Assembly (NCBI GenBank): GCA_902512415.1
Contig: CABXJB010000001.1
Location: forward strand, 4,384-68,383
Length of the DNA stretch: 64,000 nucleotides
Origin: an uncultured Alphaproteobacteria bacterium
Lineage (GTDB): Bacteria; Pseudomonadota; Alphaproteobacteria; HIMB59; GCA-002718135
Reading direction: 5' to 3'
The position numbers and the translations under genes are program-made. This document shows, piece by piece, positions 27,340 through 44,037 of the stretch; the first letter of the stretch is position 1, and each line of letters starts with the position of its first letter. Under the pieces are notes generated by a model. It had not been told where the DNA came from, searched no databases, and worked only from the letters and a program-made list of their open reading frames with translations.

Positions 27340-27363
27340 TAATATTGTGATATACTACATTGA

Positions 27364-31288: not shown

Positions 31289-31289
31289 T

Positions 31290-32318: not shown

Positions 32319-32338
32319 TATATATGTATATTAAATAA

Positions 32339-32364: not shown

Positions 32365-32382
32365 AATGTAAATAAATAAGGC

Positions 32383-33612
32383 TTATAGAAAACCTTGTTC
32401 TGTAGCTTTTGCAATATATGCTGCTTCTACATCATCCAATGCCTTTTGAGCAGATTCATTTCCTTGTAAAAATTCAACTATCTCAGTAGACAATGCACCA
32501 TGCAGTAAACTCATATGTGGTAAGCTTGGATAAGGAGTAGCGCCTCTGTTTGCAGCATCTACAACAGGACCAGCCGTATCACCAGGTGTGTAACCTTTAA
32601 TTAACCAAATAGTTGCATTTGGATTATTATTAGCCATTTCTGTTGATGTAGCGGCACCTAATAAAGCTCTAAAAGATGCTTCAGCTTCTGCATCCGAAGT
32701 ATTTGTTGCAATTCCAAATCCATCCCACCAAAGTGTTGTTGCAGGTTTACTTCCACCTCCAACTGAAGGAGAAGGAGCTAGTCTAGTATCAGCTTTAATC
32801 ATTTGATCACCTTCATCATCTAATATAGATGCTGCACCAGAGTTCCAAATGTGCATTAAAGCTAAGTTTCCTGATTCCCATTCTTCTTTAACAGCATTAG
32901 TATCTTGTGTTAAGAAATCTGGATTAGCTACTTCAGTAAGATTTTTAAGCATATTCAAAGTTGCAAGACCTTGATCATTATTAATACTTAGTTCAGCTGA
33001 GCCAGCTTTAAAAAACTCTCCTCCGTGTCCTAAATACATGTTAACAAATTCTTGACCTAAATTCCAACCTGCTTGAAAAGCACCTCCATATGGGTTAGCC
33101 ATTTTACCAGAAGCTTGAATTTTTTTTCCAGCCTCAATAACTTCCTCATATGTCGATGGAACAGCAATACCAAGTTCATTTAAAATACTTTCTCTGTACC
33201 AAAGATGTTGAGCATTTGCCATAAAAGCAATTGCATAAATCTTACCATCAATAGTAATCTTTTGATTGTCATTTAAATTATCGCCATATTTAGCAACTAA
33301 ATCATCTAGTGGACGTATCAATCCATCATTCATCAAAGTTGTTATTGATCCATTAGTTACAAGCTTTGCAGAAAACTCTGCAGGATTTGCTGATAAAGCT
33401 GCTACTTGCAATTTGTTATGATCAACAGAGTGTGTGACACTAAAATCTGCATCAGCTCCCGCACAACTTTTTACTTCATCCATAAAAATTCTGTATGTAG
33501 TAAATTCGTTAGCAAGTATATTTATTTTTCCACCTGAAACATTACAAGGATCAGCAGCAAATGTCCCTGTACTTACAAGTGAAAAAATGATTGCGTAAAA
33601 AATATTTTTCAT
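32383..33612 (-). CDS. ABC transporter substrate-binding protein, family 1 (CUT1 sugar/polyol type)
   Basis: ATG 33612 is preceded by a GGGGG-containing RBS; signal peptide MKNIFYAIIFSLVSTGTFA. The longer track start is unlikely. Confidence 0.8.
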   Translation of the reverse strand: MKNIFYAIIFSLVSTGTFAADPCNVSGGKINILANEFTTYRIFMDEVKSCAGADADFSVTHSVDHNKLQVAALSANPAEFSAKLVTNGSITTLMNDGLIRPLDDLVAKYGDNLNDNQKITIDGKIYAIAFMANAQHLWYRESILNELGIAVPSTYEEVIEAGKKIQASGKMANPYGGAFQAGWNLGQEFVNMYLGHGGEFFKAGSAELSINNDQGLATLNMLKNLTEVANPDFLTQDTNAVKEEWESGNLALMHIWNSGAASILDDEGDQMIKADTRLAPSPSVGGGSKPATTLWWDGFGIATNTSDAEAEASFRALLGAATSTEMANNNPNATIWLIKGYTPGDTAGPVVDAANRGATPYPSLPHMSLLHGALSTEIVEFLQGNESAQKALDDVEAAYIAKATEQGFL

Positions 33613-33691
33613 TGTATTACCCCCTAAATATTTTTTTCGTGCAAAATGCACTTTTTCAATTAATAGATCATATTGCAATAGAATGAATAAT

Positions 33692-33709
33692 TATTCAAGT
33701 ATTTGAATA
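33692..33709. promoter_or_regulatory. 18-bp palindrome TATTCAAgtatTTGAATA, candidate LacI-family operator
   Basis: Read directly; lies between the divergent SBP (33612) and lacI-like (33739) starts. Confidence 0.5.
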
Positions 33710-33738
33710 TTATGATGGGGATAATATAATGGAGATAT

Positions 33739-34743
33739 ATGAAGAAAATTAAAAAAATTGCCACTTCTCAAGATGTAGCTAGTTTGGCTGGAGTATCTCA
33801 ATCTGCAGTTTCAAGATGTTTCACAAAGGGAGCTAGTATTTCAAACAGAACAAAGCTTCGTGTTATAGAAGCTGCCAAAAAATTAGGCTATAAAGTTCAA
33901 AACTTTTCTCATCCTGCAGCAACATCAGGTGATAGTGGTTTAGTAGGCGTTATCTTACCTTATATTACAAATCGATATTATCCTGAGGTATTAACAGAAT
34001 TGCATGAAGCGCTTAGAAATAGAAATTACCGAATATTATTGATTACAACAGATGATAGTGAAGAGTTAGATGACAAACTGATACAGCCATACCTTAAAGA
34101 GAAGTTGATAGCTATTATAACTGCTACTAAACCAACAGACAAATTTGTTGCAAGTTGTAATGAACAAAAAATTCAAGTGATTGCCTATAACCGAAATTTT
34201 AAAATTCCAACTACAAGTTCAGTAGGTTGTGATCATCGAAATGGTGGGGAGCTTGTTGCACAACATTTAAATCAAAATAAACATAAAAACATAGGTATAA
34301 TAGAGGGGCCAAAAGGAACTTTGGTTAGTGATGAAAGATGTAAAGGTTTTAAAAACTACATTAATAATTTTAAAAATATTAAATTAATTTTTGAGAAAGG
34401 TAATTTCACTTATGAAGGAGGTTATCAAGCTGCAGAAAAAATTTTAAAAAATAAAAATATTTCAGCTATCTTTTGTGCTGATGACACTATGGCTTTTGGT
34501 TGTATGGATTTTATTAAAGATAAAACTAAATATAAAATACCAAGTGACATAGAAGTTATAGGGTTTGATGATATGTTGATGGCAAATTGGGAGTCTTATA
34601 AATTAAGCACAATTAAACAACCTATTAGACAAATGTCAAAATTAGTAACTCAATTAATTGACGAATATATTCAAGACCCTGATTTTGAACCTGCTAATCA
34701 TTCCATAGAAGGAAAATTCATTAAAAGAAAAACTACTAAATAA
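33739..34743 (+). CDS. LacI-family transcription regulator
   Basis: N-terminal HTH (TSQDVASLAGVSQSAVSRCF) followed by a periplasmic-binding-protein-like effector domain. Confidence 0.85.
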   Translation: MKKIKKIATSQDVASLAGVSQSAVSRCFTKGASISNRTKLRVIEAAKKLGYKVQNFSHPAATSGDSGLVGVILPYITNRYYPEVLTELHEALRNRNYRILLITTDDSEELDDKLIQPYLKEKLIAIITATKPTDKFVASCNEQKIQVIAYNRNFKIPTTSSVGCDHRNGGELVAQHLNQNKHKNIGIIEGPKGTLVSDERCKGFKNYINNFKNIKLIFEKGNFTYEGGYQAAEKILKNKNISAIFCADDTMAFGCMDFIKDKTKYKIPSDIEVIGFDDMLMANWESYKLSTIKQPIRQMSKLVTQLIDEYIQDPDFEPANHSIEGKFIKRKTTK

Positions 34744-34744
34744 T

Positions 34745-35164
34745 TTATTTAAATTTTATTCCCATTTGTTGTAAGACTGAATAATTATCAACCATAACAA
34801 AGTTTTCAGAAAATTTACCATTTTTGATTAGCCAAAAGTCTGAAAATTGCATCTTAATTGGTTTTCCTGTTGCCTGAATATCTAAATACGTGCCGCTGTG
34901 TGTTCCTGTTAAATAACCTGTAGCACTTGCCCAATTTTCATCTGCCACCACAATATCATTTTCAACGTAATAATCTGGAAAAGCTGCATAAAAAGGCTTC
35001 ATCACTTGCTCTTTAAAATTTTCTAAGCCATGAATGTCTCCAAATCCTGGAGGTCCATGCCAAATCATATCTTGATGCCAATATTTATCATGCGCATTTA
35101 AATCTTTCGAATTTAAAGCAACATACATATCTTCAACTAATTTTTTGTTAAATTCAGCACTCAT
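34745..35164 (-). CDS. SnoaL-like / predicted ester cyclase (NTF2-like fold), single domain
   Basis: 139 aa with the pattern ...HGPPGFGDIHGLENFK...GTHSGTYLDIQATGKPIKMQFSDFWLIKNGKFSENF, typical of COG5485-type SnoaL-like proteins. Confidence 0.65.
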   Translation of the reverse strand: MSAEFNKKLVEDMYVALNSKDLNAHDKYWHQDMIWHGPPGFGDIHGLENFKEQVMKPFYAAFPDYYVENDIVVADENWASATGYLTGTHSGTYLDIQATGKPIKMQFSDFWLIKNGKFSENFVMVDNYSVLQQMGIKFK

Positions 35165-36301
35165 TTATTTATCTCCTAATAACTGCATAAGAATTCCAAA
35201 TTCATTAAACGCTGTCCATTCTTTAATAATTTTATTATTTTCAATTTGCCACTGAGTAATACCCCAAATATAACATTCTTTATCAGTCGGCGCTCCATAA
35301 TAACCATTGCCTTTATGCGCTCCAATAGCCCCCCAACGTATGGATACTAAATATCCATCTTGTTCATTACCCATCCAATATATATCTTCAATACTAAGAG
35401 CGAGATCTGGAAAAGAGGCAATGATTGAAATTATAAAACTTCTTACCTGTTTTTTTCCTTTAAATAGACGGCCTGTTGAACCTTCAAAAACAATATTGTC
35501 AGAATAAACATGATCAATTGCAGAAAAATTTCTTCTATTCCAGATTGTATTAAAAATAGAATGAACAAACTCTCTAACATTTGAAACTTTTTCTGGAATT
35601 TCAAAACTTATTGGTTTTGCTTTACCAGTTTTTCTTTTTGGTTTTAAGTTTTTAAAATCTGGAGCAAATGGTCCTATTCCTCCTTTATTAGCAATGTCTT
35701 TTGCTACTTGATTAACATTTAATCCTAATTGTTTTATCAAGGCAGCGGTATCATAAACAACATTTTCATAATAAATTTCATTATTTTTTGCTACACAGTT
35801 TGCAATACAAAACAACCTTACAGATTTGCCTGTTGGTTCAGAAAATTTACTATAACCTGTATTTGTTCCAGTAATTATTGTTCTATGAGACGTGTGAAAA
35901 CTTGCATTGTCATCTCCAGCCCAAATAACTTCATCAGCAAAAAGTCGAATGTCAGGAAAAGCATTATTTGTATGAACTGTATCAGCAACAATTTTTTCAG
36001 ATCCTGACTGTAAGCCAAATTCATCCCAAACACGACAATTGTTACTGTAAGTATCATATATGTATCCAATGTTTTTATCTTCCCAAATGTGGTAGGTAAT
36101 TCTTACGATATAATCGATGATATTTTTATATTGTACTTCAAAACCTTTCATTGATTGTGACTTCAATTTTTTAGGGATTGGGTTTAAAGATTTAGCTGTT
36201 CCACCACCACCATATGCTTTTAATGAAATATCAAAATTATTAGGCATATGACGATCTTTTAAAGCTAGCGGTCTTCGATCTTTTATTTTTTTGTTCTTCA
36301 T
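35165..36301 (-). CDS. tandem SnoaL-like (NTF2-like) domain protein
   Basis: Two SnoaL-like halves; clear paralogue of 38561..39550 (MKGF, ITY-IWE, FPD, VIW-G-D, SHR, A-C-AKNN-Y-E). Alternative start is ATG 36151 (MKGFEVQ), which matches the paralogue's N-terminus. Confidence 0.6.
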   Translation of the reverse strand: MKNKKIKDRRPLALKDRHMPNNFDISLKAYGGGGTAKSLNPIPKKLKSQSMKGFEVQYKNIIDYIVRITYHIWEDKNIGYIYDTYSNNCRVWDEFGLQSGSEKIVADTVHTNNAFPDIRLFADEVIWAGDDNASFHTSHRTIITGTNTGYSKFSEPTGKSVRLFCIANCVAKNNEIYYENVVYDTAALIKQLGLNVNQVAKDIANKGGIGPFAPDFKNLKPKRKTGKAKPISFEIPEKVSNVREFVHSIFNTIWNRRNFSAIDHVYSDNIVFEGSTGRLFKGKKQVRSFIISIIASFPDLALSIEDIYWMGNEQDGYLVSIRWGAIGAHKGNGYYGAPTDKECYIWGITQWQIENNKIIKEWTAFNEFGILMQLLGDK

Positions 36302-36372
36302 AAATTTTTAGACTTCAGATTAGTATTAATAAGGTTTTGATACAATTAAAATATTTCAATGCAATGAAATTT

Positions 36373-36390
36373 TATGCAAATAATTGAATA
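36373..36390. promoter_or_regulatory. 18-bp near-palindrome TATGCAAataaTTGAATA, candidate operator (1 mismatch to the other two copies)
   Basis: Read directly; lies in the divergent intergenic region 36302-36430. Confidence 0.45.
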
Positions 36391-36430
36391 TTTTGCTTTT
36401 ATTTTTTTGTATTTGTAATAAGAAATTTTT

Positions 36431-37432
36431 ATGACTGACTTACAACAAGAAAAACAATTGGTTTTAGATTTTGTAAATAATATTGATAAAACTGAAAACA
36501 AACATCTTGCTGAAACAATTTCTAAATTTACCTCTGATGATTTTCATATGAGATGTACTCATCCTTTTAATGAGCTTAAAGGGGCAGACAATGTTGCCAA
36601 TGATCTATGGATACCAATTAAAAATTCTTTTATGCCTATCCAAAGAAGAATGGATATTTTTTATGCTGGCACAAACTTAATAGACAATCATTCTTCAAAA
36701 TGGGTTGTTAATATGGGTCACTTACTTGGTATATTTAATCATTCCTTTTTAGGTATAGTGCCAACAAACAAAGCTGTAATGTTATGGTACTGTGAATTTT
36801 ATAAAGTTGAAAACAATAAAATTACAGAGGGTGCTTTTTTTCTTGATATAATGAAGTTTATGCAACAATTACAACTTCCTATTATTCCGGATTCAACTGG
36901 AATGATTGGTTTTAATGCAGGCCCAATGACTCACGATGGTCTTTACTTCAATAAACAACCTGAAGCGGAAGGGCAGAAAACTTTAGATCTTATGATGCAA
37001 ATGGCTAATAGATTGGTTGGAGGCGGAATGAAGACAACAGTTCCAGATTTAGAAAAAGATTGGCATAAAGATATGATTTGGTGGGGACCTGGTGGCATTG
37101 GTGCGTCGTATACTTATGAAGGATATTTAAAAGGACATACTGGCCCTTTTGAAGAAGGGTTAGATTATATTGAATTTACAGGTCATAAGCTTGAAAATGC
37201 AGAAGGAAATTATGGCGGATGGTTTGGTTGGCCTAATTTAAAAATGAAACCTAAAAGTAATTATATGGGACTTACATCGAGCTCAGACAAAATAGGAGAG
37301 ATGAGAGTTGTAGATCTTTATAGAAGAGATGGCGATAAATTAGCTGAAAACTGGATTTTTATTGATCATTTACATTTCTTAAAGTGTGTTGGTGTTGATT
37401 TACTTCAACGAAACAACCAATTAAATAATTAA
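36431..37432 (+). CDS. NTF2-like (SnoaL-related) two-domain protein, function unknown
   Basis: 333 aa; paralogue of 40639..41733 (KDMIWWGPGGIG vs KKMMWYGPCGIG; ENWIFID vs ENWVPID). Confidence 0.5.
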   Translation: MTDLQQEKQLVLDFVNNIDKTENKHLAETISKFTSDDFHMRCTHPFNELKGADNVANDLWIPIKNSFMPIQRRMDIFYAGTNLIDNHSSKWVVNMGHLLGIFNHSFLGIVPTNKAVMLWYCEFYKVENNKITEGAFFLDIMKFMQQLQLPIIPDSTGMIGFNAGPMTHDGLYFNKQPEAEGQKTLDLMMQMANRLVGGGMKTTVPDLEKDWHKDMIWWGPGGIGASYTYEGYLKGHTGPFEEGLDYIEFTGHKLENAEGNYGGWFGWPNLKMKPKSNYMGLTSSSDKIGEMRVVDLYRRDGDKLAENWIFIDHLHFLKCVGVDLLQRNNQLNN

Positions 37433-38556
37433 ATAACTTTTGAAGCTAGCTTCGTGCCCTCAACTAATGCATGGAGTTTCTCATAACATATATTTTCATC
37501 TATTTTTCCAAAGCCTGCAAATGTACTGAAACCACAATCTGTTCCTGCCATTAATTGTTCTTTTGGAATCACTGTTGAAAATTGAATTAATCTATCAGCT
37601 ACAACTTCTGGATGTTCTACAAAATTTGACGTTGAATCAATTAAGCCAGGGACAAGAATTTTATCTTTAGGAAGTTTAATATCTTTAAATATTTTCCATT
37701 CATGCGAATGTCTAGGATTTGACGATTCAATTAAAAAATATTTCACTTTTGCCTTCAAAATTATCGGAAGTATTTTTTCTAGACTAATATCATGAGTGTG
37801 AGGACCTTCATAATTACCCCAACATATATGCATACGCACCATATCACTTTGCACATCAACTAAAGAATTATTTAAGTATTCAATTTGCTTTTCTGCCTTT
37901 TTTAAAAAATCTTCATCTGACAAAGATTTATAACTCATATGTCTTGCTAGAGCCAAGTCAGGACAATCTAATTGTAATTGAATATTAGCTTTTGTTATTG
38001 CTTTATATTCATTTGCCATAAGGAAAGACAATTTTTCCATATATTCATCATCATCCTTATAAAATTTATTTGGCATGAATACTGAAATTACTCCTGGAGA
38101 TGCAGCGTTCATAAAACCTCTCTGATGATTTGCTTTTTGTAACGCTTTACTAAAATTTCCAATATCTTTATGTAGTGAATCATCATCCTTCAGTTCCAAA
38201 TTACTTGTGCAACATGGACGTGTATATGTAGGAGTTCCGCCGCTTTGTGCTATTTTTTCTTTATAGTTTGGAAAATCATCTAAGTCTGCTGGCGCTCTTC
38301 TTTCACTTTCTCCAGAAAAACCATGTAGTCGATCTTTTACATAAGTAGCATAGCTTATTTTGCTCATTTCACCATCGCTAACAAAATCTATACCGACATC
38401 TAGTTGTTTATTAACGACCTGCTCGACGTTTTTCTTAACCACATCTTGAAATAAGTTACTATCAAATGACTCGCCTTTATCTTTATTAAACAATAATTCT
38501 GATAATTCTTTAGAGCGAGGTAAACTGCCTACATGCGTTGTTAAAATAGATGTCAT
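37429..38556 (-). CDS. cobalamin-independent methionine synthase (MetE C-domain)-like Zn thiol-alkyltransferase family protein
   Basis: N-terminus MTSILTTHVGSLPRS; Zn ligand motifs H-x-C (MHICWGN) and distal Cys (GTDCGFS). Confidence 0.75.
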   Translation of the reverse strand: MTSILTTHVGSLPRSKELSELLFNKDKGESFDSNLFQDVVKKNVEQVVNKQLDVGIDFVSDGEMSKISYATYVKDRLHGFSGESERRAPADLDDFPNYKEKIAQSGGTPTYTRPCCTSNLELKDDDSLHKDIGNFSKALQKANHQRGFMNAASPGVISVFMPNKFYKDDDEYMEKLSFLMANEYKAITKANIQLQLDCPDLALARHMSYKSLSDEDFLKKAEKQIEYLNNSLVDVQSDMVRMHICWGNYEGPHTHDISLEKILPIILKAKVKYFLIESSNPRHSHEWKIFKDIKLPKDKILVPGLIDSTSNFVEHPEVVADRLIQFSTVIPKEQLMAGTDCGFSTFAGFGKIDENICYEKLHALVEGTKLASKVI

Positions 38557-38560
38557 AAAT

Positions 38561-39550
38561 TTAGCCTGTCTGCATTAAAATCTGTTTCCAGATCATTGTT
38601 TCATCAAAAAGTATCCATTCATTTTTTATGCCACGAGAACCAAACTCTGCATGATTAATACCCATCACATACACATCGGCCTCTGTTGGCGTTCCAAACA
38701 TACCAGCACCACTATGTTTACCAGATATGGACCAGCGAATTGCTGCTTTTTTTGGATTATTACTGTTTTCTGTAAAACTTATATGTTCAATCTTAAATTC
38801 AGAATTTGGAAAAGAAGATTTAAGATTGCTCCAAAAATTTAGCACTTCTTCTCTTCCATACCTAATGAAACCACCGGGTTGATATTGTTGAATTGCTCTA
38901 TCATAATTTTCTTCAATTACATTTTTTTCACCATTCATAATACTGCTTAAAATATTGCTATAAGCTTTACCTGTATTTATTTCAGGCAAAGAGGGCGGGT
39001 TATATATAGACTTAATAGGAGTATTATTATTAAATGGTTGATCGGCTTTATCAGTTCCTCCCTCTTCCATAATTAAATTGTATGCAAATTTTTTTGGATC
39101 AATACCAATCTGTCTTACTATTGCACCTTGATCTCTTACTAACCATTCATCATAAACTTGATTATTTTTACAAGCACAATCAGCAATACCCCTGTAGACT
39201 AGTTTTTTTCCAGTAGCCTTACCATATAAACCATCTTGATTATGCGTTACAGTAGACAGAATACGGTGTGAAGAAAAATAACCCTCTTCATCATTTCCAA
39301 TCCATATTACATCTTCACCCAACAAGGTGCGGTCTGGAAATAATTTTTTACTTGCTAAAGTACCCTTAATAACAGGCTCTGCCCCATAGATGACTCCTGA
39401 AGGTGAGCGTGTTGGCGTAGCAAGACTAACTTCAGGTATATCAGCATAATATTTTTTAATAGACTCAACATCGTTGTTTTCCCATATTTGATATGTAATT
39501 TTTAAAATAAAATCAGGTAAATCTTTAAATTGATTATCAAAACCTTTCAT
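38561..39550 (-). CDS. tandem SnoaL-like (NTF2-like) domain protein
   Basis: 329 aa; paralogue of 35165..36301. The C-terminal half has GKHSGAGMFGTPTEADVYVMGINHAEF, an ester-cyclase-like pattern. Confidence 0.6.
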   Translation of the reverse strand: MKGFDNQFKDLPDFILKITYQIWENNDVESIKKYYADIPEVSLATPTRSPSGVIYGAEPVIKGTLASKKLFPDRTLLGEDVIWIGNDEEGYFSSHRILSTVTHNQDGLYGKATGKKLVYRGIADCACKNNQVYDEWLVRDQGAIVRQIGIDPKKFAYNLIMEEGGTDKADQPFNNNTPIKSIYNPPSLPEINTGKAYSNILSSIMNGEKNVIEENYDRAIQQYQPGGFIRYGREEVLNFWSNLKSSFPNSEFKIEHISFTENSNNPKKAAIRWSISGKHSGAGMFGTPTEADVYVMGINHAEFGSRGIKNEWILFDETMIWKQILMQTG

Positions 39551-39562
39551 ATTTATTGAAAG

Positions 39563-40531
39563 TCAGTTTGTTTCTCGGACGATAAATAAGCTACCTTCAT
39601 CTCTACTTATCTGCTTAACACTTCTTTTTGATTTTTTTGGCGCAGAAAAACTATCACGAGGTCCAAGAATAACTTTTTCGTCATCACATGTAACTTCCCA
39701 TTCTCCACTTAAACAATTATAAAATTCAGATCGATCTCTTGTGTAAGAATGGATATGAGCCGAAGTTCCTTTTAATAAAGACAGTCCAAAACCAGTTTTA
39801 TGAAGAATTTGTGGTTCTATTTCTTTTCCATGAATTTCAAAAGAATCTAAATAATTAATAATTGAGTTTGAATTATAATGTTCATCATCAACATACATGG
39901 TTGTATCTTGATATCTAATAACAAATTTTTCTATTTCTTCTGAGCTATAATGATCAAAAGCTTGCAGTTCTTTTTCTTGAAGAGGTTTTGTAACTATTTT
40001 ACCATCTGGTATATTTTGTTTATCAAGATCAATTAACGATCTATCTTCCATTAATAACATTCCAGACTCATTTGCTTCTTTAAGCAACTTTGGGGTCCAG
40101 GTAATAATACCGGGATCATTTTCACCAAGAACAACAAACATAAGAGCTTCTTTATCACTAACATTTTTAAATCCTCTAAACATATTCGTTGGAAATGATG
40201 CAACATCACCAGTATTAAGAATTACTTCTCCCTCTTCTCCATTAACACCCCAATAAAAGGACCAAGATCCAGAATGAATAATAAATACCTCGGCAGTGGT
40301 ATGACTATGCAGTCCTGATCCATTCATAGGAGCGGCACTAACAGCCCCAATATTAAATCCATGAGCCTCAATTAATTTTACATTTTGTTTAGTATCCTCA
40401 CTGACCCCAGGACCAATAATTGAATAATTTTTTCTATCCTGGTGTCCTTTTAATTTTCCTTCAACAAAAGGAACTGTGCTGGGTATAAGTTCATCAAATT
40501 TTGCAAGACGTGATTGAATACTATTTGACAT
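39563..40531 (-). CDS. bicupin protein
   Basis: N-domain cupin motif GSGLHSHTTAEVFIIHSG; the second beta-barrel-like half has AHIHSYTRDRSEFYNCLSGEWEV. Confidence 0.6.
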   Translation of the reverse strand: MSNSIQSRLAKFDELIPSTVPFVEGKLKGHQDRKNYSIIGPGVSEDTKQNVKLIEAHGFNIGAVSAAPMNGSGLHSHTTAEVFIIHSGSWSFYWGVNGEEGEVILNTGDVASFPTNMFRGFKNVSDKEALMFVVLGENDPGIITWTPKLLKEANESGMLLMEDRSLIDLDKQNIPDGKIVTKPLQEKELQAFDHYSSEEIEKFVIRYQDTTMYVDDEHYNSNSIINYLDSFEIHGKEIEPQILHKTGFGLSLLKGTSAHIHSYTRDRSEFYNCLSGEWEVTCDDEKVILGPRDSFSAPKKSKRSVKQISRDEGSLFIVRETN

Positions 40532-40558
40532 ATCTATACTATAAATTATTCATTTTTT

Positions 40559-40584
40559 TTGAATATTATTCAATATATTGAATA
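40559..40584. promoter_or_regulatory. overlapping palindromes TTGAATAtTATTCAA and TATTCAAtataTTGAATA, candidate operator
   Basis: Read directly (40559-40573 and 40567-40584); lies in the divergent intergenic region 40532-40638. Confidence 0.5.
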
Positions 40585-40638
40585 AATCAATTAGTTAATA
40601 ATGGATAATTGTGAGTAACTAAATTAAAAGTTTTTGTA

Positions 40639-41733
40639 ATGCAGATTGAAGATTTTAAAACAGGTATAAAGGTTGATCCCAACCTAAAAACAATTAATTT
40701 AGATCCAAAAGAGAATGTTCAAAATAAAAAAAATATAAGAGCTCTTCTTAAAAATATCGTTGAATCTTCTTTAAGTTCGCTAAAAAAAAATTTAGAAAAA
40801 GCTTATCACAGTGAGGCAGAGTTAAATGGATTTTATCCAATAAATGAAATTAAGGGTATTGATGCAATTGAACAATTATTATGGGAGCCTCTCTTAACTT
40901 CTTTTCCTGATTTAGAGAGAAGAGATAATTTAATAATTGGGGGCAGTTTTCAAGATAAAATATTTGTATCTTGTATAAGTCATTTAACAGGAACCTTTAC
41001 TAAACCTTGGTTAAATATTCCGGCTACAAAAAAAACAATTCACTTACGTCTTTGTGAAGTGCATCAATTAAAAGATAATAAAATAATTAAATCCTATGTA
41101 CTAATTGATATTATGGATTTTATTCGCCAAGCTGGTTTTTGGCCTATCAATCCTTCACTTGGCATTGAAGAAATGTGGCCTGGACCAATTATTGGGAATG
41201 GATCTTCATTTGAAAATTTAGATATTAAACTCTCAAAAGAATCTTTGAGCCAAGGATTAACAATGCAAAGAAGTTTAAACATTAAACCTGAATCTGAAGA
41301 AGGAATAACCAATCAAGAAATTCGCAACAAATTGATAGATCACCCACAAAAGGATTTTTGGCATAAAAAGATGATGTGGTATGGACCTTGTGGCATTGGA
41401 ACAGCTAGGGGGCTAGAAGGTTTTGTTGATCATCACCAGTTACCTTTTCGATTAACTTTTAAAGAAAGAAATTATTGGAAAATTGGCCACTATGTTGAAT
41501 TAGGAGATGGATCATATTCCATGACAGGAGGTTGGCACAGCATAACAGCAACACATGGTTCAAAAGATTGGCTAGGTTATGAACCTACACAAAAACAAAT
41601 AACTATGAGAGTAATGGATTTTTACCTTCATGATGAAGGACTTATTAGAGAAAATTGGGTACCAATTGATATAGTGCATATTCTTAAACAATTGGATATA
41701 GATGTTTTCAAATTAGTTGAAAAAATGAGATGA
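40639..41733 (+). CDS. NTF2-like (SnoaL-related) two-domain protein, function unknown
   Basis: 364 aa; paralogue of 36431..37432. Its stop overlaps the start of the hisD-like gene. Confidence 0.5.
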   Translation: MQIEDFKTGIKVDPNLKTINLDPKENVQNKKNIRALLKNIVESSLSSLKKNLEKAYHSEAELNGFYPINEIKGIDAIEQLLWEPLLTSFPDLERRDNLIIGGSFQDKIFVSCISHLTGTFTKPWLNIPATKKTIHLRLCEVHQLKDNKIIKSYVLIDIMDFIRQAGFWPINPSLGIEEMWPGPIIGNGSSFENLDIKLSKESLSQGLTMQRSLNIKPESEEGITNQEIRNKLIDHPQKDFWHKKMMWYGPCGIGTARGLEGFVDHHQLPFRLTFKERNYWKIGHYVELGDGSYSMTGGWHSITATHGSKDWLGYEPTQKQITMRVMDFYLHDEGLIRENWVPIDIVHILKQLDIDVFKLVEKMR

Positions 41734-43016
41734 CTATAAAGTATATTAAAAAAGCAGATAAAACAGCCTCTTCAGATGAAGCAGAAACTCGTAAAAGAGT
41801 TCAGGATGTATTAAATGAAATTGAATCAAGAAGAGATGAAGGGATAAAAGATATATCGCGTAAATTTGATAATTATGAAGGTGATGTTATTGTTTCCAAA
41901 GAAAAAATTGAAGAGGTTATTAAGTCTCTTGATCAAAAGGTAAAAGATGACGTGCAATTCTCTTATGATAGAGTAAGAAGTTTTGCTGAACATCAATTAA
42001 AACACCTTAATAATGATTTTGAAGTTGAATTATCACCCGGTTTGTTTGCAGGGCAAAAATTAATTCCAGTTAATAGTGTTGGTTGTTATGTGCCTGGTGG
42101 TCGTTACAATAATATTGCATCCGCAGTAATGAGTATAACAACAGCAAAAGTGGCAGGCGTAAAAAATGTTATTGCAGCAAGTCCTCCAAAAGATGTGAAC
42201 GGTGCAAATCCCATTATTATTTATACAGCGAATTTATGTGGTGCTGATGTTATTATGAATATTGGTGGAATTGGAGCGATCGGAGCTTTTGCCTATGGAT
42301 GCTTTGGTAATCCAGAAGTTGATATGATTGTTGGACCAGGGAATCAATATGTTGCTGAAGCAAAAAGAATTTTGTACGGCAAAGTTGGTATTGATTTATT
42401 TGCTGGCCCAACTGAAATTGCAATTATTGCTGATCATACAGCTGATAAAGAAATGATTGCTGTTGATTTAGTAGGACAAGCAGAGCATGGACCTAACTCC
42501 CCTGCTTGGTTATATTCCACTGATCAACAATTATGTGACTATGTGATGAAGAGAGTACCTGAATTAATTGCTGCACTTCCTGAAACATCAAAAAATAATG
42601 CTGAAGCAGCATGGCGTGATTACGGAGAAATTATTCTGTGTGATACGAATGAAGAGTTATGTGAGATTAGTGATCAATATGCACCTGAACATTTAGAAGT
42701 ACAAGCAGAAAAATTAGATTGGTGGCTTGATAAATTAAAAAACTATGGATCATTATTTTTAGGCGAAGAGACAACTGTTGCCTACGGAGATAAATGCTCA
42801 GGCACTAATCATATCCTTCCAACAAAAGGGGCAGCAAAATACACGGGTGGTTTATTTGTTGGTAAATTTATTAAAACAGTTACATTCCAACGTATGACAA
42901 AAGAATCAAATAAAGAAGTTGGTGCAGCCGCTGCTAGAATTTCTCGGTTAGAAGGAATGGAAGCACATGCTAGAACGGGTGATGCTCGTTTACGCAAATA
43001 CGGATTTCAAAACTAA
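41730..43016 (+). CDS. histidinol-dehydrogenase-family NAD-dependent dehydrogenase (HisD paralogue; HpsN-like candidate)
   Basis: QAEHGPNS, APEHLEV and GTNHILPT motifs of the HisD family, with no other his genes nearby. Confidence 0.75.
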   Translation: MTIKYIKKADKTASSDEAETRKRVQDVLNEIESRRDEGIKDISRKFDNYEGDVIVSKEKIEEVIKSLDQKVKDDVQFSYDRVRSFAEHQLKHLNNDFEVELSPGLFAGQKLIPVNSVGCYVPGGRYNNIASAVMSITTAKVAGVKNVIAASPPKDVNGANPIIIYTANLCGADVIMNIGGIGAIGAFAYGCFGNPEVDMIVGPGNQYVAEAKRILYGKVGIDLFAGPTEIAIIADHTADKEMIAVDLVGQAEHGPNSPAWLYSTDQQLCDYVMKRVPELIAALPETSKNNAEAAWRDYGEIILCDTNEELCEISDQYAPEHLEVQAEKLDWWLDKLKNYGSLFLGEETTVAYGDKCSGTNHILPTKGAAKYTGGLFVGKFIKTVTFQRMTKESNKEVGAAAARISRLEGMEAHARTGDARLRKYGFQN

Positions 43017-43017: not shown

Positions 43018-43419
43018 TTATTTTTCTTTTAATTCACCTTTTTGGCGCATTTCTTTTCTGATATTTGTTGCAGAAATTTTATGTATTTCTACTCCTAAAT
43101 CATGTTCAGTGAATGTGTAGCCCACTCCTCTGCCATAAGATATATCAATAATGTTAGGAACCTTAATAACTACATATTCTCGACCTTCTTCATATCCATG
43201 AGGCTTTAACCCTTCAATTATATTTTTTTTCACTTCTTCAAATTGAAAAGGGTTATCTGATTGTCCTTCTACGCCAGCATCTGATCCTCCTACATCACGG
43301 TACATAATGCAAACCTGTCCAGTTTTTTGCAATGCTCTTTTAAATAATTCGGTATGACCATCATGCCAGGGTTGCCACCGTCCAAGCATCTCAACAGTAG
43401 GTTTTTTCCAATCAAACAT
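43018..43419 (-). CDS. minimal cytidylyl/adenylyl-transferase-like nucleotidyltransferase (133 aa)
   Basis: GRWQPWHDGH (an H-x-G-H motif in the GRFQPFHxGH style) and a C-terminal ISATNIR (ISxTxxR) motif. Confidence 0.6.
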   Translation of the reverse strand: MFDWKKPTVEMLGRWQPWHDGHTELFKRALQKTGQVCIMYRDVGGSDAGVEGQSDNPFQFEEVKKNIIEGLKPHGYEEGREYVVIKVPNIIDISYGRGVGYTFTEHDLGVEIHKISATNIRKEMRQKGELKEK

Positions 43420-43906: not shown

Positions 43907-44037
43907 AATTATTATGTTATTAAATATTTATTTATTTAACGCAATAAATGTTTCATTTTGATAAAAATTCTTTAAAAAGCTATAAAAACATACAAAGACT
44001 AACATAATAATTATTTAATTTTGGGGAAATATACTAA

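What the first reader, a model, noticed from the sequence alone, without database searches (positions are those of the whole stretch)
34745..41733. Five proteins carrying up to nine NTF2/SnoaL-like domains, interleaved with a bicupin and a MetE-like enzyme
Within 7 kb there are five NTF2/SnoaL-like proteins:
- One single-domain SnoaL-like protein (34745-35164).
- Two paralogous tandem SnoaL-like proteins (35165-36301 and 38561-39550).
- Two paralogous two-domain NTF2-like proteins (36431-37432 and 40639-41733).

The pairwise paralogy is visible directly in the translations. These proteins are interleaved with a 322-aa bicupin carrying a metal motif and a MetE-like Zn thiol-alkyltransferase. 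The cluster is flanked by a LacI regulator/CUT1 importer on one side and a HisD-family dehydrogenase on the other.

SnoaL-like proteins act as cyclases, isomerases, hydrolases or small-molecule binders. I know of no characterised pathway built mainly from them, and repeated local duplication is unusual in a streamlined genome. This is the best candidate in the window for an undescribed catabolic or transformation system for a marine metabolite.
Basis: partly seen in the sequence, partly recalled or inferred. Interest (0 to 1): 0.8.

Follow-up and report, generated by a model that had tools for sequence, protein, structure and literature searches.

The report
Conserved SnoaL-rich catabolic regulon, substrate unknown
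The five SnoaL-like proteins are real and form part of one LacI-controlled, 14-gene nutrient-uptake and breakdown unit. This unit is conserved across many SAR11-type marine bacteria and occurs on plasmids of unrelated bacteria, but its substrate and chemistry have not been described.

Summary
Five SnoaL/NTF2 proteins carrying nine domains, a bicupin and a short zinc-site MetE-like protein lie at the stated coordinates.

The unit is larger than reported: 29606-43016, 14 genes. It also includes the CUT1 importer, an SDR, LacI and the HisD-family gene.

A 20-bp palindrome, TTATTCAA-N4-TTGAATAA, occurs three times in 64 kb, once in each of the cluster's three divergent promoter regions. It is conserved there in relatives: 145 of 148 hits.

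In 51 full-length SAR11-type loci, the MetE-like, cupin and N2 genes are present in 51/51. A HisD-family gene and an SDR are present in 50/51, and all five SnoaL proteins in 45/51.

Orthologous clusters lie on Roseobacter, Rhizobiales, Vibrio, Deinococcus and Priestia plasmids. These often add a lactonase-like hydrolase, a pyruvate aldolase and an amidase. The paralogues are therefore ancient (28-30% identity), not local duplications.

The "HisD" here is an HpsN-type (DHPS dehydrogenase-like) cassette. It replaces the usual cluster-type enzyme and lacks the sulfonate-binding His.

The most likely function is an oxidative, non-phosphorylative catabolic pathway for an unidentified carbohydrate-like solute. 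No literature on it was found.

The parts
29606..30373 (-). Cluster SDR oxidoreductase, the last gene of the transporter operon and the left boundary of the conserved block
   Evidence: It hits adh_short_C2 at 216 bits. It is 76% identical to the SDR next to HisDc in L001 but only 30% to HpsO. An SDR is present in 50/51 full-length loci. Homology with L002 and L003 ends at 29595-29602.
30407..32318 (-). Two CUT1-type ABC permeases (30407-31288 and 31290-32318)
   Evidence: Both hit BPD_transp_1. They are present in 51/51 loci at 79-97% identity. No ATPase gene lies in the SAR11 cluster, although one is present in the Roseobacter and Sinorhizobium versions.
32383..33678 (-). Periplasmic solute-binding protein (SBP_bac_1). 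The real start is probably the ATG at about 33612, giving a signal peptide MKNIFYAIIF...
   Evidence: It hits PF01547 at 67.5 bits. It is not the SAR11_0769 glucose binder: 8HQQ is absent from its PDB hits, and the best matches are only E 1e-12 to 1e-10 (trehalose/maltose BP, SmoF). Cluster members of 410 aa start at the internal Met. A hairpin follows the gene at 32364-32339.
33691..33710 (.). Operator O1 (TTATTCAAGTATTTGAATAT) in the SBP|lacI divergent promoter region
   Evidence: It is one of only three matches in the window. It overlaps a -35/-10-like site at 33703-33730. The motif is found in this intergenic position 59 times across the window and fetched loci.
33739..34743 (+). LacI-family repressor
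   Evidence: It has the LacI HTH plus Peripla_BP domains. Loci that lack this gene (L001, L058, L059) also lack the operator motif.
34745..35164 (-). S1, a single-domain SnoaL protein (139 aa)
   Evidence: It hits PF07366 at 83.8 bits. The S2 stop codon is immediately followed by the S1 ATG. Orthologues occur in Ruegeria, Octadecabacter and Mesorhizobium.
35165..36301 (-). S2, an S-type tandem SnoaL protein (378 aa, with a conserved ~50-aa N-terminal extension)
   Evidence: Pfam finds two stretches. It is 30% identical to S3. The S-type is the only SnoaL type in the minimal Priestia, Sinorhizobium and Deinococcus clusters.
36372..36391 (.). Operator O2 (TTATGCAAATAATTGAATAT) in the S2|N1 divergent promoter region
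   Evidence: The motif is found in this intergenic position 35 times across the window and fetched loci.
36431..37432 (+). N1, an N-type tandem SnoaL/NTF2 protein (333 aa)
   Evidence: It hits PF07366 at 46.2 bits with two stretches. Orthologues are 39-49% identical in Ruegeria, Octadecabacter, Vibrio and Mesorhizobium.
37429..38556 (-). MetE-like zinc enzyme: the catalytic barrel only (375 aa), with no folate-binding half
   Evidence: It hits PF01717 at 56.4 bits. All NCBIfam methionine-synthase equivalogs score far below their cut-offs (94.8 vs 406). H-x-C, E and C, plus the GSLPR and DGE motifs, are conserved. It is present in 51/51 loci. It is 51-53% identical to the copies in Roseobacter clusters.
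38561..39550 (-). S3, an S-type tandem SnoaL protein (329 aa)
   Evidence: The AF2 model has pLDDT 91.9 and two NTF2 barrels. The N-terminal barrel carries most of the invariant residues: D13, W23, E24, Y35, S94-H95-R96, C125, N130, E135, D140. The family has 5323 hits but only 165 representative clusters at E<=1e-30.
39563..40531 (-). Bicupin (322 aa), the first gene of the cupin-S3-MetE-like operon
   Evidence: H75, H77 and E81 are invariant. The usual fourth His is replaced by an invariant R119. It is present in 51/51 loci.
40566..40585 (.). Operator O3 (TTATTCAATATATTGAATAA, a perfect palindrome) in the cupin|N2 divergent promoter region
   Evidence: It overlaps a -35-like TTGAAT of a promoter-like site at 40573-40545. 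The motif is found in this intergenic position 51 times across the window and fetched loci.
40639..41733 (+). N2, an N-type tandem SnoaL/NTF2 protein (364 aa)
   Evidence: It hits PF07366 at 59.5 bits with two stretches. Its stop overlaps the next gene's start (ATGA). It is present in 51/51 loci.
41730..43016 (+). HisD-family four-electron dehydrogenase of the HpsN type (DHPS-3-dehydrogenase-like), occupying the slot that most relatives fill with the cluster-type paralogue HisDc
   Evidence: It scores 524 bits against CpHpsN 8v35 but ~246 bits against true HisD. The alignment is gapless at 55% identity. The signature motif reads G-R-Y-N-N instead of G-R-Y-[A/S]-H (PMC11382572). The replacement boundaries against L003 fall at 41754 and 43015.

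Best explanation
Window 29606-43016 is one substrate-inducible catabolic regulon of 14 genes in six transcription units around three divergent promoters.

Regulation and uptake:
- A LacI-family repressor binds a 20-bp palindrome in each divergent promoter. This site overlaps the -35 region of at least two promoters.
- The repressor controls a CUT1 ABC importer and all the enzymes.
- The imported compound is an unidentified small, hydroxylated, carbohydrate-like solute. It probably carries an anionic group, and in the marine versions a transferable methyl or alkyl group.

Proposed enzyme roles:
- The cofactor-independent SnoaL/NTF2 enzymes carry out the substrate-specific early steps, such as isomerisation, ring opening or closing, dehydration or hydrolysis by acid/base catalysis. 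The S-type tandem protein is the universal core. The N-type and S1 proteins are additions that widen or extend this front end.
- The zinc MetE-like enzyme removes an alkyl (methyl) group onto a homocysteine-type thiol. In soil versions an amidase or C-N hydrolase is present where the MetE-like gene is absent.
- The SDR and the metal-binding bicupin oxidise and rearrange the carbon skeleton. In fuller versions a lactonase-like hydrolase and a class-II pyruvate aldolase join them. The route resembles a non-phosphorylative Entner-Doudoroff-type pathway.
- The HisD-family enzyme oxidises a vicinal hydroxy or amino alcohol or aldehyde fragment to the acid.

In this lineage that last enzyme has been exchanged for an HpsN-type cassette.

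Shown here: gene content, conservation, operon junctions, shared operator, folds, the paralogue swap.
Inferred: every catalytic role, the order of steps and the nature of the substrate.
For: Single unit:
- The operator motif occurs 3 times in 64 kb against 0.38 expected, and no shuffle out of 100 reached 3. All three copies lie in the cluster's three divergent intergenic regions, which together span about 296 nt.
- Across 1.49 Mb of fetched loci, 145 of 148 hits lie in those same three positions. Loci lacking LacI lack the motif.
- Co-conservation in 51 full-length loci: MetE-like, cupin, N2 and the permeases 51/51; a HisD-family gene, an SDR and the SBP 50/51; all five SnoaL proteins 45/51.
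- Overlapping or abutting stop and start codons link N2 to the dehydrogenase and S2 to S1.
- The same gene set occurs on plasmids of Ruegeria, Marinovum, Octadecabacter (IS-flanked), Paracoccus, Mesorhizobium, Sinorhizobium medicae, Vibrio, Deinococcus and Priestia.

Catabolic, oxidative, sugar-like:
- The regulon has an importer plus a LacI repressor.
- Accessory enzymes elsewhere resemble PcaD-type and L-fucono-1,5-lactonase-type lactonases. The aldolases resemble HpaI/GarL/2-keto-3-deoxy-rhamnonate aldolase or LigK-like RraA.
- Minimal six-enzyme versions exist in Priestia and Sinorhizobium.

Anionic fragment:
- The Asp-Lys pair (Lys353 contacts the sulfonate in CpHpsN) and an Arg or Lys in the signature loop are kept in HpsN, the window enzyme, HisDc and the Deinococcus and Priestia enzymes (PMC11382572).

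MetE-like as thiol alkyltransferase:
- The zinc ligands and the GSLPR and DGE motifs are conserved.

Folds.
Against: - No substrate is identified, and no enzyme in the set has a characterised close relative. Profile searches of the S-type and bicupin families against the PDB give only weak generic hits.
- The window's version lacks a lactonase, an aldolase and an ABC ATPase. The proposed route is therefore incomplete here unless those functions are encoded elsewhere or are not needed.
- Vibrio pelagius has only the transporter plus four tandem SnoaL genes. The SnoaL module can thus work without the proposed back end.
- No classical sugar-acid dehydratase is present, so assigning that step to a SnoaL or cupin protein has no precedent.
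- The operator and promoters are predicted from sequence only.
- LacI is absent from 18 of 51 loci.
Confidence: 0.5

Rival explanations
1. The cluster is specifically an organosulfonate pathway. One version is a sulfo-Entner-Doudoroff-like route for sulfoquinovose or its glycerol glycoside. In that route the SDR oxidises the sugar, SnoaL or cupin proteins replace the dehydratase, an RraA or HpcH aldolase releases pyruvate plus sulfolactaldehyde, and the HisD/HpsN-type enzyme makes sulfolactate. The other version is a DHPS or cysteinolate route. The sulfite released would be oxidised by the adjacent AprBA.
For: - The window's dehydrogenase is closest to biochemically proven HpsN enzymes (524 bits, 55-58% identity).
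- CpHpsN uses sulfolactaldehyde about 12 times more efficiently than DHPS (PMC11382572). A Bilophila HpsN prefers L-cysteinolate (PMC12814064).
- aprM, aprB, aprA, an APS-kinase-like gene and cysQ lie 1 kb downstream, and a tpa/ald/pta-type module lies upstream.
- The CUT1 SBP is distantly similar to the SQ-glycerol binder SmoF (E 4e-10).
- Paracoccus alcaliphilus carries a cysteinolate cluster 13 kb from its SnoaL cluster.
- The aldolase and lactonase types are those used for 6-deoxyhexonates.
Against: - The sulfonate-contacting His126 that defines HpsN is replaced by Asn in all SAR11 HpsN-type copies. The majority enzyme HisDc reads G-K-F-P-M.
- aprA is adjacent in only 2 of 51 full-length loci, plus the window.
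- No sulfoquinovosidase, suyAB, xsc, cuyA or sulfite exporter lies in the cluster or the window.
- Amidases recur in the soil versions, and no known sulfoglycolytic route needs one.
- The similarity to SmoF is no better than to maltose or chitobiose binders.
- The 2026 sulfoquinovose review lists no such genes.
Confidence: 0.2
2. The SnoaL proteins are not five separate enzymes. They are substrate-binding or scaffolding subunits, or partners of a hetero-oligomeric enzyme. For example, an NTF2 protein might present the alkyl donor to the MetE-like zinc enzyme. The true catalysts would then be only the MetE-like protein, the cupin, the SDR and the dehydrogenase.
For: - A MetE-like gene is translationally coupled to a small NTF2 gene in Sphingobium RAC03, outside this cluster.
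- S3 lies directly upstream of the MetE-like gene in every SAR11 locus.
- The best full-length structural match of S3 is a heterodimeric NTF2 pair, MonBI-MonBII.
- In S3 only the N-terminal barrel is strongly conserved, as expected if one barrel is structural.
Against: - Soil versions keep S-type SnoaL proteins but have no MetE-like gene.
- Vibrio has four SnoaL genes and a transporter with no other enzyme nearby.
- The invariant polar residues (D, E, H, R, Y, C) in the N-terminal barrel look like an active site.
- No complex could be modelled with the tools available.
Confidence: 0.12
3. It is a biosynthetic (polyketide-type or other secondary-metabolite) cluster, as the automatic names 'polyketide cyclase' and 'ester cyclase' suggest.
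For: The Pfam and NCBI product names, and structural similarity to SnoaL2, AclR, IdmH and ChaU.
Against: - There is no PKS, NRPS, acyl carrier or tailoring methyltransferase anywhere in the cluster in any organism.
- The cluster has a binding-protein-dependent importer and a LacI repressor.
- The SnoaL methyl-ester cyclase model scores 19.5 bits against a 200-bit cut-off.
- SAR11 genomes are not known to make polyketides (established knowledge).
Confidence: 0.03
4. It is a chance juxtaposition of unrelated genes, or a lineage-specific burst of local duplication with no common function.
For: None beyond the initial impression of repeated similar genes.
Against: Conservation of order and content across 80 loci and five bacterial orders, the shared operator, and 28-30% identity between the paralogues, each of which has its own orthologue elsewhere.
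Confidence: 0.02

Closest known systems
Canonical DHPS operon hpsR-hpsKLM-hpsN-hpsO-hpsP (Ruegeria pomeroyi, Cupriavidus pinatubonensis; also seen here in Paracoccus, Rhodovulum and Leisingera plasmids)
   Same: Both have a LacI-type regulator, a binding-protein-dependent importer and a HisD-family four-electron dehydrogenase. The window's enzyme is 55-58% identical to these HpsN proteins. It keeps all Zn and catalytic residues, Arg-Tyr in the signature loop and the Asp-Lys pair.
   Different: The importer is a CUT1 ABC system, not a TRAP transporter. There is no HpsO or HpsP (the SDR is 30% identical to HpsO) and no SuyAB or ComDE. The signature His126 is replaced by Asn. Five SnoaL proteins, a bicupin and a MetE-like enzyme have no counterpart in the DHPS operon.
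D-cysteinolate degradation cluster (HpsN + CuyC + CuyB + CuyA; PMC12814064)
   Same: It uses an HpsN-type enzyme to oxidise an amino alcohol sulfonate to the acid. Such a cluster lies 13 kb from a SnoaL cluster on the Paracoccus alcaliphilus plasmid.
   Different: No CuyA, CuyB or CuyC homologues lie in or near the window's cluster. On the Paracoccus plasmid the two systems are separate, and each has its own HisD-family gene.
Non-phosphorylative oxidative pathways for 6-deoxyhexoses and the sulfo-Entner-Doudoroff pathway (SedA-D, SlaB)
   Same: The logic is shared in the fuller versions of the cluster: sugar dehydrogenase (SDR), lactonase, 2-keto-3-deoxy-acid aldolase of the HpcH/RraA type, then oxidation of the C3 aldehyde.
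   Different: There is no IlvD/Edd, enolase-superfamily or UxaA-type dehydratase, and no aldehyde dehydrogenase of the ALDH family. Instead there are SnoaL proteins, a cupin and a HisD-family enzyme. The window itself lacks the lactonase and the aldolase.
SnoaL/AknH polyketide cyclases, SnoaL2/AclR, limonene-1,2-epoxide hydrolase, ketosteroid isomerase, MonBI-MonBII (NTF2-like enzymes)
   Same: They share the alpha+beta cone fold (TM-score 0.6-0.8 per domain against targets) and cofactor-independent acid/base chemistry is expected. The tandem arrangement resembles the dimer or heterodimer of these enzymes.
   Different: Sequence identity is 8-17%. The SnoaL methyl-ester cyclase model scores far below its cut-off. 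The context is catabolic rather than biosynthetic. The fusion of two barrels in one chain and the use of up to five such proteins in one operon set have not been described.
Short 'core' MetE-family methionine synthases (PRK04326 type; folate-independent MesA-D families)
   Same: It is a single (beta/alpha)8 catalytic barrel of about 340-375 aa with H-x-C, E and C zinc ligands and homocysteine-type binding motifs.
   Different: All equivalog models score far below their cut-offs (94.8 bits against 406). It is embedded in a catabolic operon beside NTF2 proteins, with no corrinoid protein or MesX-type partner nearby. The window holds a second, more canonical core-MetE at 10197-11249.

Membership tests
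SnoaL/NTF2-like superfamily | Significant match to the SnoaL profile (PF07366) above the gathering score | tested here: met
   The scores are 83.8, 81.0, 46.2, 50.2 and 59.5 bits against a 28.4-bit cut-off for S1, S2, N1, S3 and N2. The four long proteins each have two stretches.
SnoaL/NTF2-like superfamily | Alpha+beta cone (three helices packed on a curved sheet) fold | tested here: met
   This was tested for S3 only. The AF2 model has pLDDT 91.9 and two such barrels. Foldseek gives probability 1.0 to SnoaL2, IdmH, LEH and KSI. The other four proteins were judged by sequence only.
SnoaL-type polyketide methyl-ester cyclases | Match to the curated cyclase subfamily model and a polyketide biosynthetic context | tested here: not met
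   NF033407 scores 19.5 bits against a 200-bit cut-off. No PKS genes are present in any version of the cluster.
HpsN (R-DHPS 3-dehydrogenase) | HisD fold with Zn and catalytic residues (Gln248, His251, Glu318, His319, Asp352, His411 in CpHpsN numbering) | tested here: met
   QAEHG, EHLEV, GDK and EAHART are all conserved in the alignment.
HpsN (R-DHPS 3-dehydrogenase) | Signature loop G-R-Y-[A/S]-H, whose final His126 binds the sulfonate (PMC11382572) | tested here: not met
   The window, L002, L015 and L033 read G-R-Y-N-N, and L022 reads G-R-N-N-Y. Canonical Paracoccus, Rhodovulum and Leisingera enzymes read G-R-Y-S-H.
HpsN (R-DHPS 3-dehydrogenase) | Lys353, which contacts the sulfonate | tested here: met
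   G-D-K is conserved.
HpsN (R-DHPS 3-dehydrogenase) | Closer to proven HpsN than to histidinol dehydrogenases | tested here: met
   It scores 524 and 511 bits against 8v35 and 8wwe, but no more than 246 bits against HisD structures.
HpsN (R-DHPS 3-dehydrogenase) | Genomic context with hpsO/hpsP, a DHPS transporter and a desulfonation module | tested here: not met
   The contrast with canonical operons is shown.
HpsN (R-DHPS 3-dehydrogenase) | NAD-dependent oxidation of R-DHPS or sulfolactaldehyde to sulfolactate | not testable with these tools
   An enzyme assay is needed.
Histidinol dehydrogenase HisD | G-S-A-P-L loop and a histidine-biosynthesis context | tested here: not met
   The loop reads G-R-Y-N-N and there are no his genes nearby. 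The TIGR00069 score (434.6 bits) passes its cut-off, but the model does not separate HpsN from HisD.
Cobalamin-independent methionine synthase MetE | Catalytic barrel with His-x-Cys, Glu and Cys zinc ligands | tested here: met
   It hits PF01717 at 56.4 bits. HICWG, ESSN and DCGF are conserved in seven homologues and in the window's second core-MetE.
Cobalamin-independent methionine synthase MetE | N-terminal folate-binding barrel (about 750 aa in total) or equivalog-level similarity | tested here: not met
   The protein has 375 aa. The best equivalog scores 94.8 bits against a 406-bit cut-off.
Bicupin metalloenzymes | Two beta-barrel cupin domains in one chain | tested here: met
   Two Cupin_2 stretches, and Foldseek E 1e-14 to OxdC, quercetinase and salicylate dioxygenase over ~330 columns. 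The model has pLDDT 72.7.
Bicupin metalloenzymes | Full cupin metal motif (His-x-His-x3,4-Glu ... His) | tested here: inconclusive
   H75, H77 and E81 are invariant in the N-terminal barrel. The position of the last His is an invariant Arg119. The C-terminal barrel motif is not conserved.
LacI-regulated CUT1 ABC uptake operon | LacI repressor, SBP_bac_1 binding protein and two BPD_transp_1 permeases | tested here: met
LacI-regulated CUT1 ABC uptake operon | Palindromic operator in the regulated promoters | tested here: met
   Three sites are specific to the three divergent promoters and are conserved in relatives. Binding itself was not tested.
LacI-regulated CUT1 ABC uptake operon | Dedicated ATP-binding subunit | tested here: not met
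   It is absent from the SAR11 clusters. A UgpC-like ATPase is present in the Roseobacter, Paracoccus and Sinorhizobium versions.
Sulfo-Entner-Doudoroff pathway | SedA-D (dehydrogenase, lactonase, IlvD/Edd-type dehydratase, aldolase), SlaB and a sulfoquinovosidase | tested here: not met
   In the window only an SDR and an HpsN-type enzyme could correspond. There is no lactonase, dehydratase, aldolase or glycosidase.

The most novel reading that the evidence does not exclude
This is a previously unrecognised kind of catabolic pathway, widespread in SAR11 and carried on mobile plasmid islands in other bacteria. In it, tandem cofactor-independent NTF2-fold enzymes perform the core transformations of an abundant dissolved metabolite, possibly a sulfonated or O-methylated sugar-like compound. 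They replace the classical dehydratases, isomerases or glycosidases. A folate-independent MetE-like enzyme salvages the metabolite's methyl group directly into methionine. The terminal HisD-family dehydrogenase is exchanged between lineages as a cassette (HisDc or HpsN-type) to retune the end product.
Probability: 0.3. Interest if true: 0.85.

Novelty: new variant of a known kind. Interest (0 to 1): 0.68.

Why it matters
[quoted passage not shown] Three points make this unit worth pursuing:

1. It is a well-delimited, co-regulated unit of importer plus enzymes. It is present in a large share of the SAR11-type genomes sampled and is built from enzymes with no characterised relatives. Its binding protein is not among those already de-orphaned in strain HTCC1062.
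2. The same unit occurs in culturable Ruegeria, Marinovum, Octadecabacter, Vibrio pelagius, Sinorhizobium medicae and Priestia. The substrate question can therefore be tested directly by ligand screening and genetics.
3. Genes scored as 'SAR11 hpsN' in meta-omic surveys of DHPS cycling may include this cluster-embedded enzyme. It lacks the sulfonate-binding histidine, and its paralogue HisDc may have been scored the same way. Both could bias estimates of DHPS use.

Tried and rejected
- **Literature.** Ten full-text searches found nothing on this gene set. They covered SnoaL with SAR11, DHPS or sulfoquinovose; ester cyclase with histidinol dehydrogenase; polyketide cyclase with SAR11; and combined annotation terms. 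Two recent SAR11 pangenome papers and the 2026 sulfoquinovose review do not mention it. Durham et al. 2019 is not held.
- **SBP as glucose binder.** I asked whether the SBP is the SAR11_0769 glucose binder; it is not.
- **Window SDR as HpsO.** It is only 30% identical.
- **Sulfoglycolysis in the Ruegeria conchae flank.** An AGE-family isomerase, an fsa-type aldolase and a second sugar ABC system suggested a sulfo-transaldolase cluster, but the wider region does not support this.
- **S. meliloti transportome inducers.** The rhizobial version is in S. medicae, not strain 1021.
- **Structure and profile searches.** Searches with S3 and the bicupin gave only generic superfamily matches. The SDR is generic as well.
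- **Riboswitches.** None were found; only tRNAs were detected.
- **GDH-like gene 28194-29621.** It overlaps the SDR stop, but it is not conserved with the cluster.
- **Speculative substrates.** I considered mycosporine-like amino acids, O-methyl cyclitols, glucosylglycerol, cyanogenic glycosides and N-methyl pyridinium osmolytes. They could rationalise the amidase/MetE-like alternation, but no tool result supports any one of them.

Full report
**1. The observation**

The ORF list reproduces every gene at the coordinates given. I use the following names.

| Name | Coordinates | Strand | Length |
|---|---|---|---|
| S1 | 34745-35164 | - | 139 aa |
| S2 | 35165-36301 | - | 378 aa |
| N1 | 36431-37432 | + | 333 aa |
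| MetE-like | 37429-38556 | - | 375 aa |
| S3 | 38561-39550 | - | 329 aa |
| bicupin | 39563-40531 | - | 322 aa |
| N2 | 40639-41733 | + | 364 aa |
| HisD-family | 41730-43016 | + | 428 aa |

All five SnoaL candidates pass the Pfam SnoaL gathering score, and the four long ones show two matched stretches each. BLASTP confirms S2~S3 (30% identity over 332 aa, E 4e-46) and N1~N2 (28% over 336 aa, E 2e-39). S1 aligns to both halves of N1 and best to the C-terminal half of N2. The count of nine domains therefore holds.

An AlphaFold2 model of S3, built on 38 homologues, has pLDDT 91.9 and consists of two NTF2-type alpha+beta barrels. Foldseek returns only SnoaL-like enzymes: SnoaL2, IdmH, AclR, ChaU, limonene epoxide hydrolases and ketosteroid isomerase. 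The MonBI-MonBII heterodimer is the full-length match.

The bicupin fold is confirmed. Its N-terminal barrel has an invariant His75-x-His77-x3-Glu81, and an invariant Arg replaces the usual last His. The MetE-like protein has only the catalytic barrel and keeps H-x-C, Glu and Cys.

**2. The unit is larger than the finding and is one regulon**

Homology between the window and its closest relatives (L002, 93% nucleotide identity; L003, 84%) begins exactly at the stop codon of an SDR gene at 29606. It runs through the transporter genes, LacI and all the enzymes. The conserved block is 29606-43016.

It is organised as six transcription units around three divergent promoter regions:
- SBP-permease-permease-SDR (-) | lacI (+)
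- S2-S1 (-) | N1 (+)
- cupin-S3-MetE-like (-) | N2-dehydrogenase (+)

The S2 stop abuts the S1 start codon, and the N2 stop overlaps the dehydrogenase start as ATGA.

Reading the three divergent regions showed a shared palindrome. A search for TTATTCAA-N4-TTGAATAA with up to two mismatches finds exactly three sites in the 64-kb window: 33691-33710, 36372-36391 and 40566-40585 (the last a perfect palindrome). Chance would give 0.38, and none of 100 shuffles reached three. Each site lies in one of the three divergent regions, which together span about 296 nt. By my arithmetic the probability of that placement under uniform positioning is of the order of 1e-8.

In 82 sequences totalling 1.49 Mb, 145 of 148 matches lie in those same three intergenic positions. 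The loci that lack the lacI gene (L001, L058, L059) have no match. Two of the sites overlap -35-like hexamers of promoter-like sequences.

This is in-silico evidence only.

**3. Co-conservation**

A scan of one genome per species found 241 loci encoding an S3 relative. The 80 loci kept are almost all single-cell or metagenome genomes labelled Pelagibacteraceae or uncultured marine Alphaproteobacteria.

Among the 51 loci with 10 kb on both sides:
- the MetE-like, cupin, N2 and both permease genes are present in 51;
- a HisD-family gene, an SDR and the SBP are present in 50;
- all five SnoaL genes are present in 45;
- the remaining 6 carry a reduced variant with only S3 and N2, and a different binding protein.

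One SAR11 subgroup adds an RraA-family gene between S3 and the MetE-like gene (19 of 51) and places the SDR next to the dehydrogenase.

**4. The cluster outside SAR11**

tblastn against plasmids found the same gene set in several taxa.

- **Roseobacters and Paracoccus.** Ruegeria conchae, Marinovum algicola, Octadecabacter arcticus and Paracoccus alcaliphilus carry a CUT1 transporter with its ATPase, five 'ester cyclases', hisD, an SDR, LacI, a cupin, an alpha/beta hydrolase and RraA. The three roseobacters also carry a MetE-like gene. In Octadecabacter the unit is bounded by IS elements.
- **Mesorhizobium.** This version adds a GMC oxidoreductase and lacks the MetE-like gene.
- **Vibrio pelagius.** It has only the transporter and four tandem SnoaL genes.
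- **Deinococcus.** One plasmid has SDR, LacI, HisD, an HpcH aldolase, an alpha/beta hydrolase and a cupin. Next to these lie a CUT1 transporter, four S-type SnoaL genes, a second HisD and a C-N hydrolase.
- **Priestia filamentosa.** It has the most compact form: LacI, SDR, cupin, alpha/beta hydrolase, HpcH aldolase, one S-type SnoaL, HisD, two MFS transporters and an amidase.
- **Sinorhizobium medicae-type replicons.** They have the ABC transporter, HisDc, SDR, LacI, a bicupin, RraA, an amidase, an alpha/beta hydrolase and one S-type SnoaL.

Sorting all the SnoaL proteins into orthogroups shows that the S-type tandem protein is universal. The N-type tandems and S1-type singles occur only in the proteobacterial versions. 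Each window paralogue has its own orthologue at 31-51% identity in other orders. The multiplicity is therefore ancient and inherited as a block, not produced by recent duplication in a streamlined genome.

The S-type family itself is small: 165 representative clusters at E<=1e-30 among 1.84 billion.

**5. The accessory enzymes constrain the chemistry**

- The alpha/beta hydrolase is most like 3-oxoadipate enol-lactonases.
- The Amidohydro_2 protein in Ruegeria is most like L-fucono-1,5-lactonase.
- The HpcH protein is most like HpaI, GarL and 2-keto-3-deoxy-L-rhamnonate aldolases.
- The RraA protein is distantly like LigK.

All score below family cut-offs.

Two different aldolase families and two different amide-hydrolase families (amidase signature and C-N hydrolase) fill equivalent places in different phyla. 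This argues that aldol cleavage to pyruvate and hydrolysis of an amide are real steps in those versions. Marine versions have the MetE-like gene where soil versions have an amidase.

An SDR, a cupin and a HisD-family dehydrogenase are always present.

This is the logic of oxidative, non-phosphorylative sugar or sugar-acid pathways. However, no known dehydratase family is present, so SnoaL or cupin proteins would have to supply that step and the other steps. That assignment is inference.

**6. The dehydrogenase**

The window's protein scores 524 bits against the solved C. pinatubonensis DHPS-3-dehydrogenase (8v35). It scores 511 bits against the Ruegeria enzyme (8wwe) and about 246 bits against true histidinol dehydrogenases. 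The alignment is gapless.

Its closest plasmid relatives (56-58% identity) sit in textbook hpsR-KLM-N-O-P operons followed by suyAB or comDE.

Yet the dehydrogenase found in most versions of this cluster is a different paralogue, which I call HisDc. HisDc is 73-88% identical among SAR11 L001, Ruegeria, Marinovum and Mesorhizobium, but only 46% identical to the window's protein.

Gene maps show both types in exactly the same slot downstream of N2. HisDc fills it in 47 of 51 loci. The HpsN type fills it in the window, L002, L015, L022 and L033. Against L003, which shares the same flanks up to aprA, nucleotide identity collapses 24 nt into the gene and resumes at its stop codon. This is a clean cassette replacement.

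The structural paper on CpHpsN defines the family by the loop G-R-Y-[A/S]-H. Its last His binds the sulfonate, and Lys353 helps. True HisD has G-S-A-P-L (PMC11382572).

| Enzyme group | Signature loop |
|---|---|
| Canonical HpsN | G-R-Y-S-H |
| SAR11 HpsN-type copies | G-R-Y-N-N (one copy G-R-N-N-Y) |
| HisDc | G-K-F-P-M |
| Deinococcus enzymes | G-R-Y-P-M and G-R-Y-P-I |
| Priestia enzyme | G-R-F-P-L |

All keep the catalytic residues and the Asp-Lys pair.

I therefore file the window's enzyme as HpsN-like but not as a proven DHPS dehydrogenase, because one defining feature was tested and not met. The retained cationic residues suggest that both cluster enzymes act on a small vicinal hydroxy or amino alcohol or aldehyde carrying an anionic group.

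An HpsN homologue from Bilophila prefers L-cysteinolate (PMC12814064), so specificity within this clade is already known to vary.

The 'SAR11 HpsN' assayed by Liu et al. (PU1002_02401 from HTCC1002) had a Km of 106 mM for R-DHPS and comparable activity on histidinol. The authors state that SAR11 hps homologues are not clustered (PMC11131964). I could not determine whether that gene corresponds to either type found here.

**7. Links to sulfur metabolism**

The evidence for a link is suggestive but weak.
- aprM, aprB, aprA, an APS-kinase-like gene and cysQ lie just downstream.
- A class-III aminotransferase, alanine dehydrogenase, pta and an EamA transporter lie upstream.
- The Paracoccus plasmid carries a complete cysteinolate cluster 13 kb from its SnoaL cluster.

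Against a link:
- aprA adjacency is limited to the window and its two closest relatives.
- No desulfonating enzyme is present in the window.
- The sulfonate-binding His is missing.
- Amidases recur in the soil versions.

I rank a dedicated organosulfonate pathway as the main rival rather than the best explanation.

**8. The MetE-like enzyme**

It keeps the zinc ligands and the GSLPR and DGE motifs. These correspond, from established knowledge of MetE, to the homocysteine-binding region. It lacks the folate-binding half and scores far below every methionine-synthase equivalog cut-off.

In Sphingobium RAC03 a 47%-identical homologue is translationally coupled to a 129-aa NTF2 gene in a region of methoxy-aromatic catabolism. 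In SAR11, S3 always lies directly upstream of the MetE-like gene.

The most economical reading is a thiol-dependent dealkylation (demethylation) of the pathway substrate, possibly working with an NTF2 partner. This is inference.

**9. Comparison with what is known, and verdict**

No paper in the searchable library connects these genes. Recent SAR11 pangenome papers and the sulfoquinovose review do not mention them.

The binding protein is not one of those de-orphaned in HTCC1062.

As a kind of system (LacI repressor, ABC importer, catabolic enzymes) it is familiar. Three things are new:
- the enzyme set, with up to five NTF2-fold proteins as the dominant component;
- the coupling to a short MetE-like enzyme;
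- the interchangeable HisD-family cassette.

I rate it a new variant of a known kind, with moderately high interest. It is well delimited, abundant in the ocean's dominant heterotroph, present in culturable bacteria, and directly testable. The substrate and every catalytic step remain unknown.

Noticed in passing
window 11378-12622 (-): A copper-containing nitrite reductase (NirK) scores 481 bits against a 296-bit cut-off, in a low-GC SAR11-like genome fragment.
   Followed up: no
window 8661-11249 (+): A PehA-like sulfatase (phosphoric/sulfuric ester hydrolase) is followed 7 nt later by a second, more canonical short core-MetE (PRK04326, 222 bits). This is another pairing of a MetE-like gene with a hydrolytic catabolic gene.
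   Followed up: no
window 19073-24465: An arginase-family protein, alanine dehydrogenase, a class-III aminotransferase, phosphate acetyltransferase and an EamA transporter lie together. This resembles a taurine/sulfoacetaldehyde-type module, but no xsc gene is in the window.
   Followed up: partly
window 28194-29621 (-): A Glu/Leu/Phe/Val-family amino-acid dehydrogenase overlaps the cluster SDR's stop by 16 nt. It is not conserved with the cluster: homology with L002 and L003 ends at 29595-29602, and there is no hit in any other locus.
   Followed up: yes
window 43018-48324: Immediately downstream of the cluster lie a small conserved ORF, an APS-kinase-like P-loop protein, aprM, aprB, aprA and cysQ, which together form a sulfite/APS module. 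This adjacency is shared only with L002 and L003.
   Followed up: partly
window 24532-28137: A creatinase/prolidase-type M24 peptidase lies next to pxpC, pxpB and pxpA (5-oxoprolinase). SAR11 is known to import pyroglutamate with high affinity (PMC11485210).
   Followed up: no
L096 (Paracoccus alcaliphilus p77023) 9877-19807: A complete D-cysteinolate degradation cluster is present in an aerobic alphaproteobacterium, 13 kb from a full SnoaL cluster. It has a CuyA-like desulfhydrase, a DegT-family CuyC, a racemase CuyB, a TauABC-like transporter, HpsN, an alpha/beta hydrolase and a sulfate exporter.
   Followed up: partly
L094 (Sphingobium sp. RAC03) 9995-11508: A MetE-like gene (47% identical to the window's) is translationally coupled to a 129-aa NTF2-family gene. 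They sit beside a feruloyl-CoA hydratase/lyase-like gene and near a GcvT-type demethylase, metF and purU.
   Followed up: no
L044-L055 and L060 (SAR11-type loci): A reduced variant of the cluster has only N2 and S3, the same cupin, MetE-like, HisDc and LacI genes, and a binding protein and permeases only about 40-55% identical to the window's. It carries two operator copies in the LacI|SBP region.
   Followed up: partly
L003 5326-6425: In the close relative that carries HisDc instead of the HpsN-type gene, the replaced segment also holds an ArsC-like gene and a lipase-like gene that are absent from the window.
   Followed up: no
L045 (NYXO01000073.1): A contig carrying the reduced SAR11-type cluster is deposited under a 'Methanobacteriota archaeon' MAG title. 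This is probably a binning contaminant.
   Followed up: no
L098 (Agrobacterium vitis pAt) 7273-14858: A further HisD-family paralogue (48% identical) sits in a different sugar-acid-type cluster, with two FAH-family hydrolases, a VOC protein, two SDRs, an epimerase/dehydratase and a GntR/FCD regulator. HisD-like enzymes in carbohydrate catabolism may be more common than their annotations suggest.
   Followed up: no
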